The notes below the pieces were generated by a model. It was not told the origin of the DNA and searched no databases. It was given only the letters and a program-made list of their open reading frames with translations. A stretch of 53,904 bases of DNA, filler included, from Basidioascus undulatus (lineage: Eukaryota): the NCBI GenBank assembly GCA_000826855.1. It is 4 parts of 4 records of this genome, joined end to end, with 100 filler letters (N's around TTAATTAATTAA, not from the genome) between each part and the next. Parts side by side here need not be neighbours in the genome. Positions count along the whole stretch, not along the records: positions 27,026 to 40,417 come from JTLS01000816.1; 3 more parts are not named here. One strand, written 5' to 3'. Below, in pieces: positions 7,234-32,300 of this stretch. A program made the position numbers and the translations under genes. The number at the start of each line of letters is the position of its first letter. Positions within the stretch are counted from its first letter, which is position 1.

Positions 7234-13414
<6,181 letters not shown>

Positions 13415-27407: not shown

Positions 27408-28895
27408 TACCTCGTTAGAGTGGATTGGGGACGCGTGGACGTTTGTCGTTTCTCTCTTCCTTCTTGATCTACCGATTCTTGCATCGCTGCTCTCCCGTGT
27501 CTACTCCCTTTCGCTTTTCTTTCTACTTTTGTGAACACCGTGCAGCGCAGCATCTTTCCTTTGCTTTTCGTCTTCGTTGAACCGGCGCGCTAGTTTTTAC
27601 TTCCACAACGCTTTCGGTCGCGCTTTTGTTGTATTGTCTTTGACAGCCCGCGGCCAAGTCTCCTCGTGCTGATCTGACCATGTGTCTGTTGCAATTGAAA
27701 GTCCTTGGCTTTTGCTGCGCCAGGTCGGTCTTCTCAGGCCTTGGACTTGGATTGTCCAGCGACGCCTCCCGACGTCTTGCCTTGCGATTGCTTGCGACCG
27801 AAACGAGTCACGGGCTGCTTCTCGATCGGAGCGTGCCTTTCCCGCCCTTGTTCCAAGGGCGGGTTTTGGGGGTGGGTATTTCCGGTTTAAAAAAACAATG
27901 AAATGGCTACTCCGATGATATACTCAGCGAAAACCGGACTCCTGGAACCTTGGGACTGACTTTTGACTCCGCCTCGCTGCCGTGTTGACCTCAGCATGCC
28001 AAATTCACCGTCTTCCTCTCCTCCAACCAGCGTCTCTCAACACTGCATCCAATAGAAATTATGAATGTGTTTGCAATTCTTCTCCTTCCACTCAGCCCAG
28101 TCGTACAGGGGTAGCGGCTTAGTGGGAGTACGGCCAGTGACATTGGTTTTGAAATGCCTTCTTGGTCTTTTCTTGACTACTCAGCAATTCCACTGGAATG
28201 TGCCTGAATTAGAACCTTAATATCCTGTCCAGATCAAGATCTCACTCCGTGTCTTCCAGCCGGAGTCAGGTTAGCCGCTCGAACCTGACGGAGGCTGCCC
28301 CTGAATTCAAGGCCACCAATGCAGCCCACAGCAATCGTGTCGCTCAGTGTTGCTTGGCCTCCGGGTAAAGATTGCTTAGGACAAGCGGGTCTGCTGTGCA
28401 GAGTATCGTCAGCCTTCCACCCTTTTTTGTACTGCCTTTCATATCCTTCCATTACATGCTTGCCGTGATGTTCTGTGTGCGAGTGACGGTACCACTGTTA
28501 GATTAGCGAGGCCACACCGAAGCAGCAAGCTGCGTCGTCTTCAAGGAGAATTAGCGACCCTTCCGTCTCATGGTTGCCATTTCTTCATTCCCTACTTCTT
28601 TACGGGCGGGTGTGGTACCAACGCACCATCTTCAATAATCTCCTACGAACCGAAACAGGCGCATTTGTCACGTACCACCTGGGCACACGCAAGTGGGATC
28701 TACTAGTCATAATGGATCTATGCATCGGCATCGTCTCTCAGGCGGCATGGGACGACGACATTTCTGGAGGTGTCCAGACCGAAGAGGTTCAACAGTTCTA
28801 GTGCAAAATCAGGCAACCAGGGTGGCCTCCCCTCACAAGCGTACCAGTGCGTAAAATCGGAGGAAAGCTAGTCCGGCAATGTCGATGGACGCAGC

Positions 28896-28901
28896 AAAAA
28901 A
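28896..28901 (-). terminator. RNA polymerase III terminator (T6)
   Basis: TTTTTT begins 1 nt after position 37 of the tRNA 5' half. Confidence 0.7.
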
Positions 28902-28902
28902 G

Positions 28903-28975
28903 TCGTAGTCAGATACTCTACCATTGAGCCAGCCGGCCTTGACCGACGCAGGGATCGAACCTGCAACCCCCTGAT
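28903..28975 (-). tRNA. Circularly permuted tRNA-Arg(ACG): 3' half (28975-28940), 1-nt spacer, 5' half (28938-28903)
   Basis: 3' half ATCAGGGGGTTGCAGGTTCGATCCCTGCGTCGGTCA precedes 5' half GGCCGGCTGGCTCAATGGTAGAGTATCTGACTACGA. Rejoined they make a 72-nt cloverleaf: acceptor GGCCGGC/GTCGGTC, D stem GCTC/GAGT, anticodon stem TCTGA/TCAGG with loop CT-ACG-AA, T stem GCAGG/CCTGC with TTCGATC loop. Confidence 0.85.
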
Positions 28976-29334
28976 TACGATGCGGAGAGTAATCTTTACA
29001 GACCAAGCAACCAACGCTGACGGCCATAGTCGGGTTAAATCCACATCCATTTCAAGGTTCTGGAACGCGCACCTTACCCAGAATGTGAATTCAACGCTCT
29101 TTCAGAAATACCATGGAATTTGTTAATAGCACGCTGATACAGACCTGTTTCAAGCAATATTCAAGCCCCAAGCAGGGGTTGTTCCAGCATGGACAGCTCA
29201 ACGGCGCAGCGCTTTCAGAAGTCAAGAATGGCATCGTCCATTTGGTTCTCCATCGTTTCGATACTATTTTCCTAATCTTCTGAACCATTCCCACGAACCT
29301 CCTATCCCACTATCCTTCTTCCGACTGTTCCACT

Positions 29335-32300
29335 TCACTCGATCTGGAACGTAAGCACCGTGACGCTCTGCCCGGAGATCGAGTGGTTGAGCGACTTCGT
29401 GTCCGGGTACGCAAACGTCTCGTAGTTGGGCGTGACGGCGAAGGGATTCTCAGGGGTGTTCCTGCCATCCGCTTTGATTTCAGGAAAAGCACAGAAGGAA
29501 CATGAGGGGAGAGTGCGGAACGCACGAGATGTTGTACTGCCCATTTGCGATGTACGAGGACGAATAATACGGCTTGACGGCGAAGTCGTCGAAGAAGAGG
29601 CGGACAGTAATAGAAGTCCTGTATTATAACCTTAGTAATGGGCCTGGAGTATGTGCAAAGAAAGCTTGAGGGACATACCTCTCTGTGTTGGCGATCTTCA
29701 GATGTCGGACAGACTGTCAGTCCATGCCTACATTCTCAGCTCGACGGACATGCGCACCTTGATAAACAAAGTCTTGTCCGTCTCATGGTGTGAGACCGAC
29801 CAGAAAAGCGGGCTGTACTCGAGCGACGACACAGGCGAGGTTTGGAGGACGTGCGTGCCGCGGTTGGCCGAGAACAGCTGCGAGTTTCAGGGCCTCAACA
29901 TACTTGACAAGATTACTGCACTAAAATGGGAGATAGTCTCACTTGTTGAGTGTAGTAGGAGGTTGACAAGATCATCTGCGTCGCGTCGTAGCTGATCATG
30001 TCTGGGGTCCATTGCGTGTTGCGGAGATGGTTGAGGCTTGGCGCGTCTGATAGATTTCAATGAAGGAATTACAGCTAATTTTTGGAAAAAAAAATTATAC
30101 ATTGCGGAACTTACAAGCTGAAGCGAAGACAATGTCGGTGTTGCGCTCGCTGAGGGTCGCTCAATCGTCAGCTGCAGCCTTCAACCCCAGCAAAGGGAAC
30201 GCCTACACGCCAGTCAAATAGGCCGCCTCGCTGTCCCCAGTCCATTAATTTAGTCCACGGTCTTTTTCCCAACCTTATGTCCGCCGTTACGTACGCCACC
30301 GATGCTTGTAAAGTCGGGAACTCGAACCGACCGTCGCCAATGACGCCCAGAGGGTTGTCCTCGTTCATCGACGTCGCAGCACTATTACATGTGAAATTTA
30401 GGTAATGCACCAAAATTCAGGATACAAAGTTTATCTTACTATTCGCCTTCAAAAATTTGTGTGCCGTTGCGGGTGAAGTTGTCATACAGCTGAGGTGTCT
30501 CTAATCAGCGAGACGGCTGCGATGCACGCGTGCTCGGATATCGACTCACAACCGAGTTCTCAATGAACCACCTCGGCGTATCGTAAACTGTTTATAATAA
30601 AGACAGTTAGAGTGACAGTCCCCACGCCCTTGCTCCTTCTCTTACCATGTCTGTCGATGTAAGTGTAACTGCAGCAAGCGGTCTCGTAAACACAAACTGA
30701 GCGGAAAGAGGTGTGTGGCATTCACTCCGAGTCCAGTTTCTGACTCATGAGGGAGGTAGCGATGAATTTGATGTCCGGGAAGGCCTCGCCCAGCTGGGTG
30801 CGGAAGTGCCTCCAGCGGTAGTAGTACGACCTGAGTGAACTTGGTTACTACGAAGACGCCAGAGTGCGAAAGGGAAGAAATGCTCACTCTTCCCCGAACC
30901 AATCCTCATTGCCGATTTCGACAAAGTTGAGCTTGAATGGCTCGGGGTGCCCGTATTCCGCACGCAGAGCTGCCCACTTGTTGGTGGATGCGTCACCGAC
31001 GACGAAGTTGATCTGCGGAAGGATTAAAGAGTCAGCTAAAGCATTATTGCGCATCATGCCTAACCGTCAGGCTTGCCTGATCGATCTGTAGAGGGACGAG
31101 GTTATCTTCAGAGCCTCAGAAGGGAGATAGAGAGCCTCTCTTACCGCCTGGTCGATGTAAGGCTGGAGCTCGTCTTCATGCACCGTAGGCCAACCGACAA
31201 GCTGTTCAGAGAGCGAGCCGGTCAGCCCAGTCACTGATCGTAAGGCAAGTCCAGGCACATTGCTGTAGTTCTGGATCGACAGGCCGGCCCACACGCCCAT
31301 GATAGGCTCCATCTGTGAACCGACCGGGGGCTTCAGCATTCATCAAGAGACAAGCGGTACAAAACACTACGCTTACCGAGAGGTCTTCACACCATTCCAG
31401 GTATTCAAGGAGACCCAGACCATCCTGTACTCAAATGGGTGTCAGTGAATGTATGCTGGAAAACTTCGCTCCTGAAGAAATAAGCATACGGTGTTCGGGT
31501 ATGCTGCATTGAGAGAGTGTTGCGATGTCAGTATGCACATTGACTTGGATATTCGTGAGAGGACTTACTCCAATCTCCCACCCGACCGGGACGGGTTTCG
31601 AGAGGCCCCTGTGTTTTGGGTACCGTCGGTCGGTTTAGAGACTACAATCGTGTCGCCGGAAGAAGAGAGACGTACGATTGTGAGGTTCCACTGCCAGCGC
31701 TCTTCTATAGTCTGGCCTTCGAGGTTGTTGCCGCCCTGAAACCCCCTTGTCAGTGCAACTCTTGAATGATGGCGCTCGTTCTAAATACTGGGAAGCGGAA
31801 GATGCTGGGACGGGTGCCAGCCAAGGCCTCAGCCAGGTCGATCCTCAAACCGTTCTCACGACCACGGAAGGTAGGCGGGAAAAGCGAGAAGAACCCGAAG
31901 TCTATAAGTGGCGGCTTCAGCCGTTCGGTACAGAAACCTACTAGATACAACAGCCACTCACAGATGGTCTGCCCAGCAGCTTCTTCACCCTCGACCTCCA
32001 CAACGAACACGTTCTGGCCGTGTGAAGCCGACTTTTCCGGGTTGAACTCGAAGTTGAACTTCCTCCACTCCTGTCCGACAGAGCCGCCCTCGATGCTGGC
32101 GGTCGCGAAGACCTCTCCGGCAGTGGAGCGCAGGGAGAGGGAGACTGTGCCACTGAACGAGTCGGAGCGGACGTAGAGGTGCGCGGTGTACTTCCAGCCT
32201 TGCTGGACCTTCATGCCTGTCAGGGTCGACATTTGTACCGAGTCAACGAGCCGTGTAGTAGTGATGTTGAGGAAATGATAGACCAACCCCAGTAACCGGT

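What the first reader, a model, noticed from the sequence alone, without database searches (positions are those of the whole stretch)
28896..28980. Apparent circularly permuted tRNA-Arg(ACG) gene in a fungus
Seen: on the minus strand an intact tRNA 3' half (positions 38-73) comes first, then a single A, then an intact 5' half (positions 1-37), then C and a T6 run. The halves are fully complementary in all four stems and the break is exactly at 37/38, the canonical intron site. The leader ends TCGTA, which can pair with TACGA of the anticodon loop, and its -3 G can form the C32 anticodon-intron pair used by eukaryotic splicing endonuclease. Established: permuted tRNA genes are known from Cyanidioschyzon merolae, some prasinophyte algae, the Bigelowiella nucleomorph and Thermofilum pendens, and mature through a circular intermediate. 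I know of no fungal example but cannot search. Inference: a Pol III transcript is end-joined by the tRNA splicing machinery and reopened at the acceptor stem. The 1-nt spacer is unusually short and may need unusual RNase P/Z handling.
Basis: partly seen in the sequence, partly recalled or inferred. Interest (0 to 1): 0.95.

Follow-up and report, generated by a model that had tools for sequence, protein, structure and literature searches.

The report
Back-to-front arginine tRNA gene, fungus
A basidiomycete fungus carries an intact arginine tRNA gene written with its back half before its front half, a layout so far described only in a few algae and one archaeon, but whether it is used could not be tested here.

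Summary
On the minus strand, 28975-28940 is the tRNA 3' half (positions 38-73), 28939 a single A, 28938-28903 the 5' half (1-37), followed by C and T6. Read as a circle, ARAGORN folds it into a clean 72-nt tRNA-Arg(ACG) with 21 of 21 stem pairs. Read linearly, the window holds no tRNA. The window is fungal (Basidiomycota; RPB1 fragment 75% identical to Wallemia).

The flanks fit a working type II permuted tRNA gene. A T6 run (1.6e-4 per position in this window) starts one base after position 37. The five bases before position 38 are the exact complement of the anticodon-loop bases 33-37 (8e-4 per position). No vestiges of outer halves lie within 1.5 kb.

Against function: the 1-nt spacer leaves a 2-nt acceptor loop that cannot close, the A and B boxes are in reversed order, and no clear upstream promoter is seen.

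I found no fungal case in print. Best reading: a real permuted tRNA gene, confidence 0.45. Main rival: a dead rearrangement relic.

The parts
28990..29000 (-). AT-rich patch TGTAAAGATTA, 15-25 nt upstream of position 38. It is the only TATA-like candidate, it is weak, and its spacing to the gene is short.
   Evidence: Read. No test of promoter function was possible. The bacterial-type promoter scan is not applicable and found nothing.
28976..28980 (-). Leader end TCGTA, the exact complement of anticodon-loop bases 33-37 (TACGA). Its -3 G could instead pair with C32 (anticodon-intron pair register).
   Evidence: The helix is part of the minimum-free-energy fold. TCGTA occurs at 8.1e-4 per position in the window.
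28940..28975 (-). tRNA-Arg(ACG) 3' half, positions 38-73: anticodon stem 3' strand, variable loop, T arm with B box (28951-28961), acceptor 3' strand and discriminator A73.
28939..28939 (-). Single-base (A) intervening sequence between discriminator A73 and G1.
   Evidence: One search shows that a 2-nt loop cannot close G1-C72.
28903..28938 (-). tRNA-Arg(ACG) 5' half, positions 1-37: acceptor 5' strand, D arm with A box (28921-28931), anticodon stem 5' strand, and loop with anticodon ACG.
28896..28902 (-). Trailer C followed by T6, read as the RNA polymerase III terminator.
   Evidence: There are only 12 runs of six or more T or A in the 53.9-kb window, and T6 starts at 1.6e-4 per position.

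Best explanation
A real circularly permuted tRNA-Arg(ACG) gene of type II (junction at 37/38) in a basidiomycete nuclear genome.

Inferred pathway: RNA polymerase III transcribes leader, 3' half, A, 5' half and C, and stops in the T6 run. The body folds as a tRNA whose acceptor stem is capped by a tiny loop and whose two free ends lie at the anticodon loop, held together by the 5-bp leader/anticodon-loop helix. The tRNA splicing endonuclease (Sen complex), measuring from the mature body, removes leader and trailer at 37/38, and the fungal tRNA ligase Trl1 joins A37 to A38. RNase P opens the acceptor loop 5' of G1. The single extra A after A73 is trimmed and CCA is added. A34 is then deaminated to inosine.

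The order may be circle first, as in algae. Alternatively the acceptor may be opened first, giving two base-paired halves that are joined later; this would suit the nuclear end-processing and cytoplasmic splicing known from budding yeast. Shown: the anatomy and the flank signals. Inferred: every processing step.
For: 1. Complete, undamaged tRNA when read circularly: 21 of 21 stem pairs and the standard invariant bases.
2. Both boundaries are sharp and coincide with the canonical intron site, with nothing missing or duplicated beyond a 1-base ambiguity.
3. T6 starts one base after position 37. T6 is rare here, at 1.6e-4 per position and 12 runs of six or more T or A in 53.9 kb on both strands.
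4. The leader's last five bases are the exact complement of loop bases 33-37 (TCGTA at 8.1e-4 per position) and form part of the minimum-free-energy fold.
5. No remnants of a lost upstream 5' half or downstream 3' half lie within 1.5 kb on either side. One alignment reached the 95th percentile of shuffles but not their maximum. So either the layout is old and the tRNA parts have been kept intact, or it arose precisely.
6. No terminator lies between the halves.
7. Type II (37/38) is the commonest class in green algae (Table 1 of PMC3978253, section read).
8. Basidiomycetes can be very intron-rich in tRNA genes (Cryptococcus neoformans, 132 of 143; passage of PMC4090602). The splicing machinery there handles nearly every tRNA.
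Against: 1. The intervening sequence is 1 nt. Published eukaryotic cases have 5-74 nt (PMC3978253) or 5-85 nt (PMC3218864). The only 1-nt case, in Thermofilum pendens, also encodes CCA. Here the precursor loop has 2 nt and cannot close G1-C72, so RNase P would face an unusual substrate.
2. The B box lies upstream of the A box. The review argues that this order is unsuitable for TFIIIC and notes that C. merolae lacks the box-binding TFIIIC subunits. From my own knowledge, fungi have TFIIIC, and A-box-directed initiation would start inside the 3' half.
3. The only upstream AT-rich patch is weak and close to the gene.
4. There is no strict bulge-helix-bulge motif. The stable register buries both cut sites in or at the end of a helix, and the anticodon-intron-pair register is energetically unfavoured.
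5. No evidence of expression, conservation or necessity was obtainable. A conventional gene may exist elsewhere in the genome.
6. The T6 could be inherited from the terminator of an ancestral ordinary gene (trailer A-C-T6). In that case it is not independent evidence of present use.
Confidence: 0.45

Rival explanations
1. Dead rearrangement relic. An ordinary tRNA-Arg(ACG) gene (leader, 5' half, 3' half, A-C-T6 terminator) suffered a local 74-bp tandem duplication with loss of the outer halves, or equivalently a swap of two adjacent segments. The product is not matured into tRNA. Other, ordinary copies supply tRNA-Arg(ICG).
For: It explains the T6 as the original terminator and the leader as the original 5' flank without invoking selection (reading). 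The 1-nt spacer and reversed A/B boxes make function difficult. tRNA-Arg(ACG) is usually multi-copy in fungi (my own knowledge), so one copy is expendable. No permuted tRNA has been reported from fungi.
Against: It needs two independent breakpoints to fall, within a base, on the one site the splicing enzyme uses, which I estimate at roughly (2/73)^2. It leaves the exact 5-base leader complement to chance (8e-4 per position). No mutation has hit any of the 21 stem pairs or the invariant bases, while no trace of the deleted halves remains within 1.5 kb. The duplicated unit would have to coincide with the mature tRNA ends to within one base.
Confidence: 0.35
2. A Pol III-transcribed tRNA-like small RNA that is not turned into a decoding tRNA. 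It could be a capped-acceptor tRNA mimic with the topology of the bacterial YrlA tRNA-like module. Or, if TFIIIC starts transcription from the A box, it could be a dedicated source of a 5' tRNA-Arg half ending at position 37.
For: The only Rfam match in the region is YrlA, whose tRNA-like domain has the same order (T arm, capped acceptor, D arm): 32.4 bits, E 1.2e-4, full model length. The linear fold is closed by the leader helix and ends in a U tail. From my own knowledge of yeast Pol III start sites, A-box-directed initiation would give a transcript of little more than the 5' half.
Against: The YrlA score is far below the gathering score of 69, and the match follows simply from tRNA elements in permuted order. 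No TROVE/Ro60 domain appeared in any of the 124 window reading frames scanned against Pfam. An intact anticodon loop, a complete anticodon stem and exact 37/38 ends are not needed for a mimic. I know of no fungal precedent.
Confidence: 0.12
3. Assembly or sequencing artefact: a chimeric join within a real ordinary tRNA-Arg gene.
For: The window holds short N runs, so it is not a continuous finished sequence.
Against: Both flanks are unique sequence with no repeats at the joins. The nearest N run is about 1.9 kb away. A misjoin giving exactly one complete tRNA complement with a terminator is very unlikely.
Confidence: 0.05

Closest known systems
Type II (37/38) circularly permuted tRNA genes of the green algae Ostreococcus and Micromonas and of Cyanidioschyzon merolae (Soma et al. 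2007; Maruyama et al. 2010; review PMC3978253)
   Same: The 3' half lies upstream of the 5' half on one strand. The junction is at 37/38. A T-stretch follows the 5' half. No promoter or terminator lies between the halves. CCA is not encoded. The complete eukaryote-type tRNA is restored on circular reading.
   Different: The host is a fungus, not an alga. The intervening sequence is 1 nt against 5-74 nt. The isoacceptor Arg(ACG) is not in the review's table of 34 genes. No clear bulge-helix-bulge motif or TATA-like element is seen. Expression is unproven here, whereas circular intermediates were shown by RT-PCR in algae.
Permuted tRNA-Tyr(GUA) of Thermofilum pendens (Chan, Cozen and Lowe 2011, PMC3218864)
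   Same: The only published permuted tRNA with a 1-nt intervening sequence.
   Different: It is archaeal, has its junction at 59/60 and not 37/38, encodes CCA (so the loop is longer), carries an additional canonical intron, and is processed at a BHB motif by an archaeal endonuclease.
YrlA (Rfam RF02553), the tRNA-like module of bacterial Y RNAs
   Same: Same order of elements: T arm, acceptor stem capped by a small loop, D arm, with the ends paired where the anticodon stem would be (alignment).
   Different: The score is below the family threshold (32.4 against 69). It is bacterial and Ro60-associated. YrlA has no anticodon loop, whereas this locus has a complete one split exactly at the splice site.
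Ordinary intron-containing fungal tRNA genes (canonical 37/38 intron, anticodon-intron pair)
   Same: Same cleavage site. A G at -3 could form the pair with C32 that the eukaryotic endonuclease uses. The leader is complementary to the anticodon region, as many introns are.
   Different: The 'intron' here is not a loop but the two free ends of the transcript, and the exons are in reverse order.

Membership tests
Circularly permuted tRNA gene (type II) | 3' half upstream of 5' half on the same strand, together giving one complete cloverleaf | tested here: met
   ARAGORN in circular mode: tRNA-Arg(ACG), 72 nt, 21 of 21 stem pairs. Linear searches find no tRNA.
Circularly permuted tRNA gene (type II) | Junction at a site cut by the tRNA splicing endonuclease (37/38 for type II) | tested here: met
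   The halves end and begin at 37/38, readable also as 36/37 because of a shared A.
Circularly permuted tRNA gene (type II) | Leader and trailer form a bulge-helix-bulge or anticodon-intron-pair structure around the junction | tested here: inconclusive
   An exact 5-bp leader/loop helix is present (-27.7 against -21.3 kcal/mol) but has no 3-nt bulges. The register with the C32:G(-3) pair and a 3-nt bulge is possible but unfavoured (-18.9).
Circularly permuted tRNA gene (type II) | Downstream T-stretch terminator and no terminator in the intervening sequence | tested here: met
   C plus T6 directly after position 37. The spacer is a single A. T6 is rare in the window.
Circularly permuted tRNA gene (type II) | Upstream promoter able to start transcription before the 3' half (TATA-like element in algae) | tested here: inconclusive
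   Only a weak AT-rich patch at -25 to -15. The A and B boxes are in reversed order. No other tRNA genes of this genome were available for comparison.
Circularly permuted tRNA gene (type II) | Intervening sequence that forms an acceptor loop removable by RNase P and a 3' end-processing enzyme | tested here: inconclusive
   1 nt, outside the published eukaryotic range of 5-74 nt. The 2-nt loop cannot close G1-C72. Cleavage was not testable.
Circularly permuted tRNA gene (type II) | Expression: permuted precursor, circular intermediate, mature CCA-ended tRNA | not testable with these tools
Circularly permuted tRNA gene (type II) | Needed for decoding (no or too few conventional genes for the same anticodon) and/or conserved in relatives | not testable with these tools
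   No genome is held for this window. The collections reachable hold no fungal genomes. The metagenome scan returned 115 of 117 ordinary tandem tRNA genes and 0 permuted. Protein-space searches with frames across the gene found nothing related.
YrlA / Y RNA-like (RF02553) | Score at or above the Rfam gathering threshold | tested here: not met
   32.4 bits against 69. No match at gathering thresholds in the whole window.
YrlA / Y RNA-like (RF02553) | Ro60/Rsr (TROVE) gene nearby | tested here: not met
   No TROVE hit in any of the 124 window reading frames scanned against Pfam. The rest of the genome was not available.
tRNA pseudogene / rearrangement relic | Disabling substitutions, truncation or redundancy of tRNA parts | tested here: not met
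   No broken pair, no missing or duplicated segment. No remnants of outer halves. The order of the parts is the only defect.

The most novel reading that the evidence does not exclude
This is the first working circularly permuted tRNA gene in a fungus, and in opisthokonts as a whole. It has the shortest intervening sequence known in a eukaryote. It would show that the fungal Sen endonuclease and Trl1 ligase can join the two ends of a transcript, giving either a 74-nt circular tRNA precursor or a pair of annealed halves. It would also show that Pol III can transcribe a gene whose B box precedes its A box in an organism that has TFIIIC. It may be one of several such genes that standard tRNA finders miss in basidiomycetes.
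Probability: 0.4. Interest if true: 0.85.

Novelty: new member of a known kind. Interest (0 to 1): 0.62.

Why it matters
Permuted tRNA genes are treated in the literature as a peculiarity of a few unicellular algae, a nucleomorph and one archaeon. A working fungal example would extend the phenomenon to a kingdom with excellent genetics. It would give direct tests of three open questions. How does Pol III transcribe a gene with reversed internal promoter boxes? Can the 5'-phosphate ligase pathway circularise tRNA precursors? How short can an acceptor loop be and still be opened by RNase P? It would also mean that tRNA gene counts made with standard finders can be incomplete in fungi. If it is a relic, it is still a snapshot of the rearrangement proposed as the origin of such genes.

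Tried and rejected
1. Whole genome: not held. So I made no count of conventional tRNA-Arg(ACG) genes and no search for other permuted genes.

3. Metagenome scan for a T arm followed closely by a D arm and the Arg(ACG) loop. Of the 117, 115 continue as an ordinary anticodon stem (another tRNA followed closely by an ordinary tRNA-Arg, mostly bacterial in look), 1 is cut by a contig end, and 1 (L096) continues with something other than an anticodon stem. None of the 117 has T5 within 10 nt of position 37. The pattern was too permissive and the collection is poor in fungi, so this says nothing about fungal relatives.

4. Protein-space trick: I translated frames that run open across the gene to catch spurious ORFs from relatives. 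phmmer of the 72-aa frame against 1.84 billion representatives gave 5 hits, all unrelated long repeat proteins. The word-index search with the 77-aa frame gave no candidate. The third open frame was not searched.

5. Earlier notes of this scan: none for this genome or for look-alike stretches. The word searches returned only algal, archaeal and phage cases.

6. Rfam: nothing at gathering thresholds, and only the sub-threshold YrlA match.

7. Remnants of outer halves, local repeats, transposon domains: none.

8. Rejected origins. A retrocopy with a poly(A) tail: the T run is on the sense strand, 3' of the tRNA, which is the wrong side and strand for a target-primed retrocopy. A chance resemblance: both halves are exact.

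9. Thermodynamic z-score of the precursor: -0.66, uninformative.

Full report
WHAT IS THERE

Read 5'->3' on the minus strand, the sequence runs as follows:
- a leader ending in TCGTA (28980-28976);
- a 36-nt stretch that is positions 38-73 of a tRNA (28975-28940);
- one A (28939);
- a 36-nt stretch that is positions 1-37 (28938-28903; position 17 is absent, as in many tRNAs);
- C (28902);
- T6 (28901-28896).

I excised the stretch and gave it to ARAGORN as a circular record. It returned tRNA-Arg(ACG) of 72 nt. All 21 stem pairs are present (acceptor 7, D 4, anticodon 5, T 5; four are G-U). It has a 7-nt anticodon loop, a 5-nt variable loop and a standard T loop. By eye the usual invariant bases are all in place: U8, A14, G18G19, A21, U33, G53-U54-U55-C56, A58, C61 and an A15/U48 pair.

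In linear mode, with or without introns, ARAGORN finds no tRNA anywhere in the window. Rfam finds nothing at gathering thresholds. Each half occurs exactly once in the window and has no second copy with up to three mismatches.

I make three refinements:
- The junction can be read as 36/37 or 37/38, because the leader also ends in A. Two differently cut records give the same tRNA.
- The precursor cannot close the G1-C72 pair over a 2-nt loop.

WHOSE DNA IT IS

The window is eukaryotic and fungal. It carries, in pieces separated by introns:
- KTI12;
- the largest subunit of RNA polymerase II;
- ribosomal protein L23 (L14p family);
- a Man1/Src1 inner-nuclear-membrane protein;
- a C2H2 zinc-finger protein;
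- a signal peptide peptidase.

A 578-aa RPB1 fragment has its best matches in Basidiomycota: 75% and 74% identity to two Wallemia species, and 66-69% to most of the other listed proteins that carry a species name, which are Agaricomycotina and Pucciniomycotina. Nothing at or near 100% identity was listed, so this genome's own proteins do not seem to be in that collection.

The gene sits in a stretch of about 4 kb (about 27.5-31.7 kb). This stretch has lower G+C (0.51-0.53 against 0.58-0.65 on either side). It has no Pfam-recognisable reading frame, no notable repeats and no other tRNA-like box.

IS IT MORE THAN A SCRAMBLED LEFTOVER?

Four features of the sequence itself speak for a gene that is, or recently was, under selection as a permuted tRNA.

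1. The two boundaries coincide with each other, so nothing is missing or redundant. They also coincide with the one site that the eukaryotic splicing endonuclease cuts.

2. A T6 run begins one base after position 37. In this G+C-rich window there are only 12 runs of six or more T or A on both strands, and T6 starts at 1.6e-4 per position. The chance of one starting within three bases of a given point is about 5e-4.

3. The last five leader bases are the exact complement of loop bases 33-37. TCGTA occurs at 8.1e-4 per position. The helix is part of the minimum-free-energy fold and stabilises the permuted cloverleaf from -21.3 to -27.7 kcal/mol.

4. The standard origin model is tandem duplication followed by loss of the outer halves. 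Local alignment of each half against 1.5 kb on either side, both strands, found no remnant of those halves beyond what shuffled sequence gives. One alignment reached the 95th percentile but not the maximum of 100 shuffles. Meanwhile the retained 73 bases have not taken a single disabling change.

WHAT SPEAKS AGAINST A WORKING GENE

The intervening sequence is one base. The review's table of 34 published genes gives 5-74 nt for eukaryotes. The single 1-nt case is in Thermofilum pendens, where CCA is also encoded (section read; passages). Here RNase P would have to cut a loop of two bases, or four once G1-C72 is opened.

The B box (28951-28961) lies upstream of the A box (28921-28931). The review argues that this order does not suit TFIIIC, and that C. 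merolae, which lacks recognisable box-binding TFIIIC subunits, uses upstream TATA-like elements. From my own knowledge, fungi have TFIIIC, and in budding yeast the start site is set roughly 20 bp upstream of the A box. That would fall inside the 3' half here.

The only AT-rich patch upstream (TGTAAAGATTA, -25 to -15) is weak and rather close.

There is no strict bulge-helix-bulge. The stable 5-bp register puts both cut sites at the ends of a helix. The register that gives the classical 3-nt bulge with a C32:G(-3) pair is unfavoured in isolation (-18.9 kcal/mol). The eukaryotic enzyme measures from the mature body and needs mainly that one pair (my own knowledge; the pair is shown in a figure legend of PMC4090602).

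Finally, the T6 may be the inherited terminator of an ancestral ordinary gene whose trailer read A-C-T6. That would weaken feature 2 as independent evidence.

WHAT I COULD NOT TEST

- No genome is held for this window.
- No collection within reach holds fungal genomes.
Of the 117, 115 continue as an ordinary anticodon stem, that is, ordinary tRNA-Arg genes lying just behind another tRNA. One is cut by the contig end, and one (L096) continues with something other than an anticodon stem. None of the 117 has a T5 run within 10 nt of position 37. This is not evidence about fungal relatives.
- Searching protein collections with frames that stay open across the gene, in the hope of catching spurious ORFs from relatives, gave only unrelated repeat proteins (5 of 5 hits) or nothing.

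Conservation, copy number of conventional genes, and expression are therefore all open.

MOST LIKELY MECHANISM (INFERRED)

1. Pol III transcribes leader, 3' half, A, 5' half and C, and ends in the U run.
2. The RNA folds as a tRNA body with a capped acceptor stem and two free ends at the anticodon loop, clamped by the leader helix.
3. The Sen complex removes leader and trailer, and Trl1 joins A37 to A38.
4. RNase P opens the acceptor loop 5' of G1. The one extra A after A73 is trimmed, CCA is added, and A34 becomes inosine.

If the ends are joined first, a 74-nt circle is the intermediate, as shown by RT-PCR for algal genes. If RNase P acts first, two annealed halves are joined later. The second order would fit the nuclear end-processing and cytoplasmic splicing known from budding yeast (my own knowledge).

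RIVALS

- A dead relic of a local duplication or segment swap (0.35). It explains the T6 and the awkward spacer. It needs two breakpoints on the splice site, an exact leader complement by chance, and no decay.
- A tRNA-like small RNA that is never made into a decoding tRNA (0.12). The region's only Rfam match is the bacterial Y-RNA-like YrlA, whose tRNA-like module has the same order of arms (32.4 bits against a threshold of 69, E 1.2e-4). A-box-directed initiation would give mostly a 5' half. However, no Ro60/TROVE domain is in any of the 124 window frames scanned against Pfam, and a mimic needs neither a complete anticodon loop nor ends at 37/38.
- An assembly artefact (0.05), which cannot be excluded without reads.

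COMPARISON WITH WHAT IS KNOWN

The locus works like, and by anatomy belongs with, the type II permuted tRNA genes of Ostreococcus, Micromonas and C. merolae. It meets the tests on gene order, junction site and terminator. The tests on bulge-helix-bulge motif, promoter and intervening sequence are inconclusive. Expression, necessity and conservation could not be tested.

In print I found no fungal case. Two full-text searches ('permuted tRNA' with 'fungi': 16 papers, of which the 12 listed titles were seen; 'permuted tRNA' from 2015 on: 46 papers, 40 titles seen) show none by title or abstract start. The 2014 review (section 4 and passages read) and passages of a 2026 review restrict permuted tRNA genes in eukaryotes to unicellular algae and a nucleomorph. 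Papers outside the held library were not searched.

One relevant background fact: the basidiomycete Cryptococcus neoformans has introns in 132 of 143 tRNA genes (passage of PMC4090602). So in this phylum nearly all tRNAs may already pass through the splicing enzymes.

VERDICT

If real, it is a new member of a known kind, in a new kingdom and with an extreme spacer. Interest 0.62.

Noticed in passing
window 27500-31700: A stretch of about 4 kb around the gene has lower G+C (0.51-0.53 against 0.58-0.65 in the flanks). It has no reading frame with a Pfam match, no notable repeats and no transposon domains. It is unusually empty for this otherwise gene-dense window.
   Followed up: partly
window, several places (none within 1.9 kb of the finding): The window contains short runs of N, so it is not one uninterrupted finished sequence. 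I did not look into them.
   Followed up: no
window 8225-13180 (+): The gene for the largest subunit of RNA polymerase II is split into many short exons (Rpb1 domains 1, 3, 4, 5, 6 and 7 on separate frames). The best matches of a 578-aa piece are to Wallemia at only 75%, so the organism has no close annotated relative in the protein collection.
   Followed up: partly
window 28868-29126, three frames: Three of the six reading frames stay open right across the permuted tRNA (72, 77 and 84 codons). Gene callers could mistake the locus for a small ORF.
   Followed up: partly
L096 (metagenome locus), match at 300-365 on the minus strand: A eukaryote-looking tRNA-Arg(ACG) 5' part lies directly behind another tRNA. 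After position 37 it continues with AT-rich sequence where the anticodon stem should be. It is probably an intron-containing gene in an AT-rich eukaryote.
   Followed up: no
window 28885-28986 (-): Rfam's YrlA model aligns end to end with the locus below threshold. It also pairs CGCA in the leader with TGCG just beyond the T6 run. This 4-bp outer helix could form only if transcription read through the T run.
   Followed up: no
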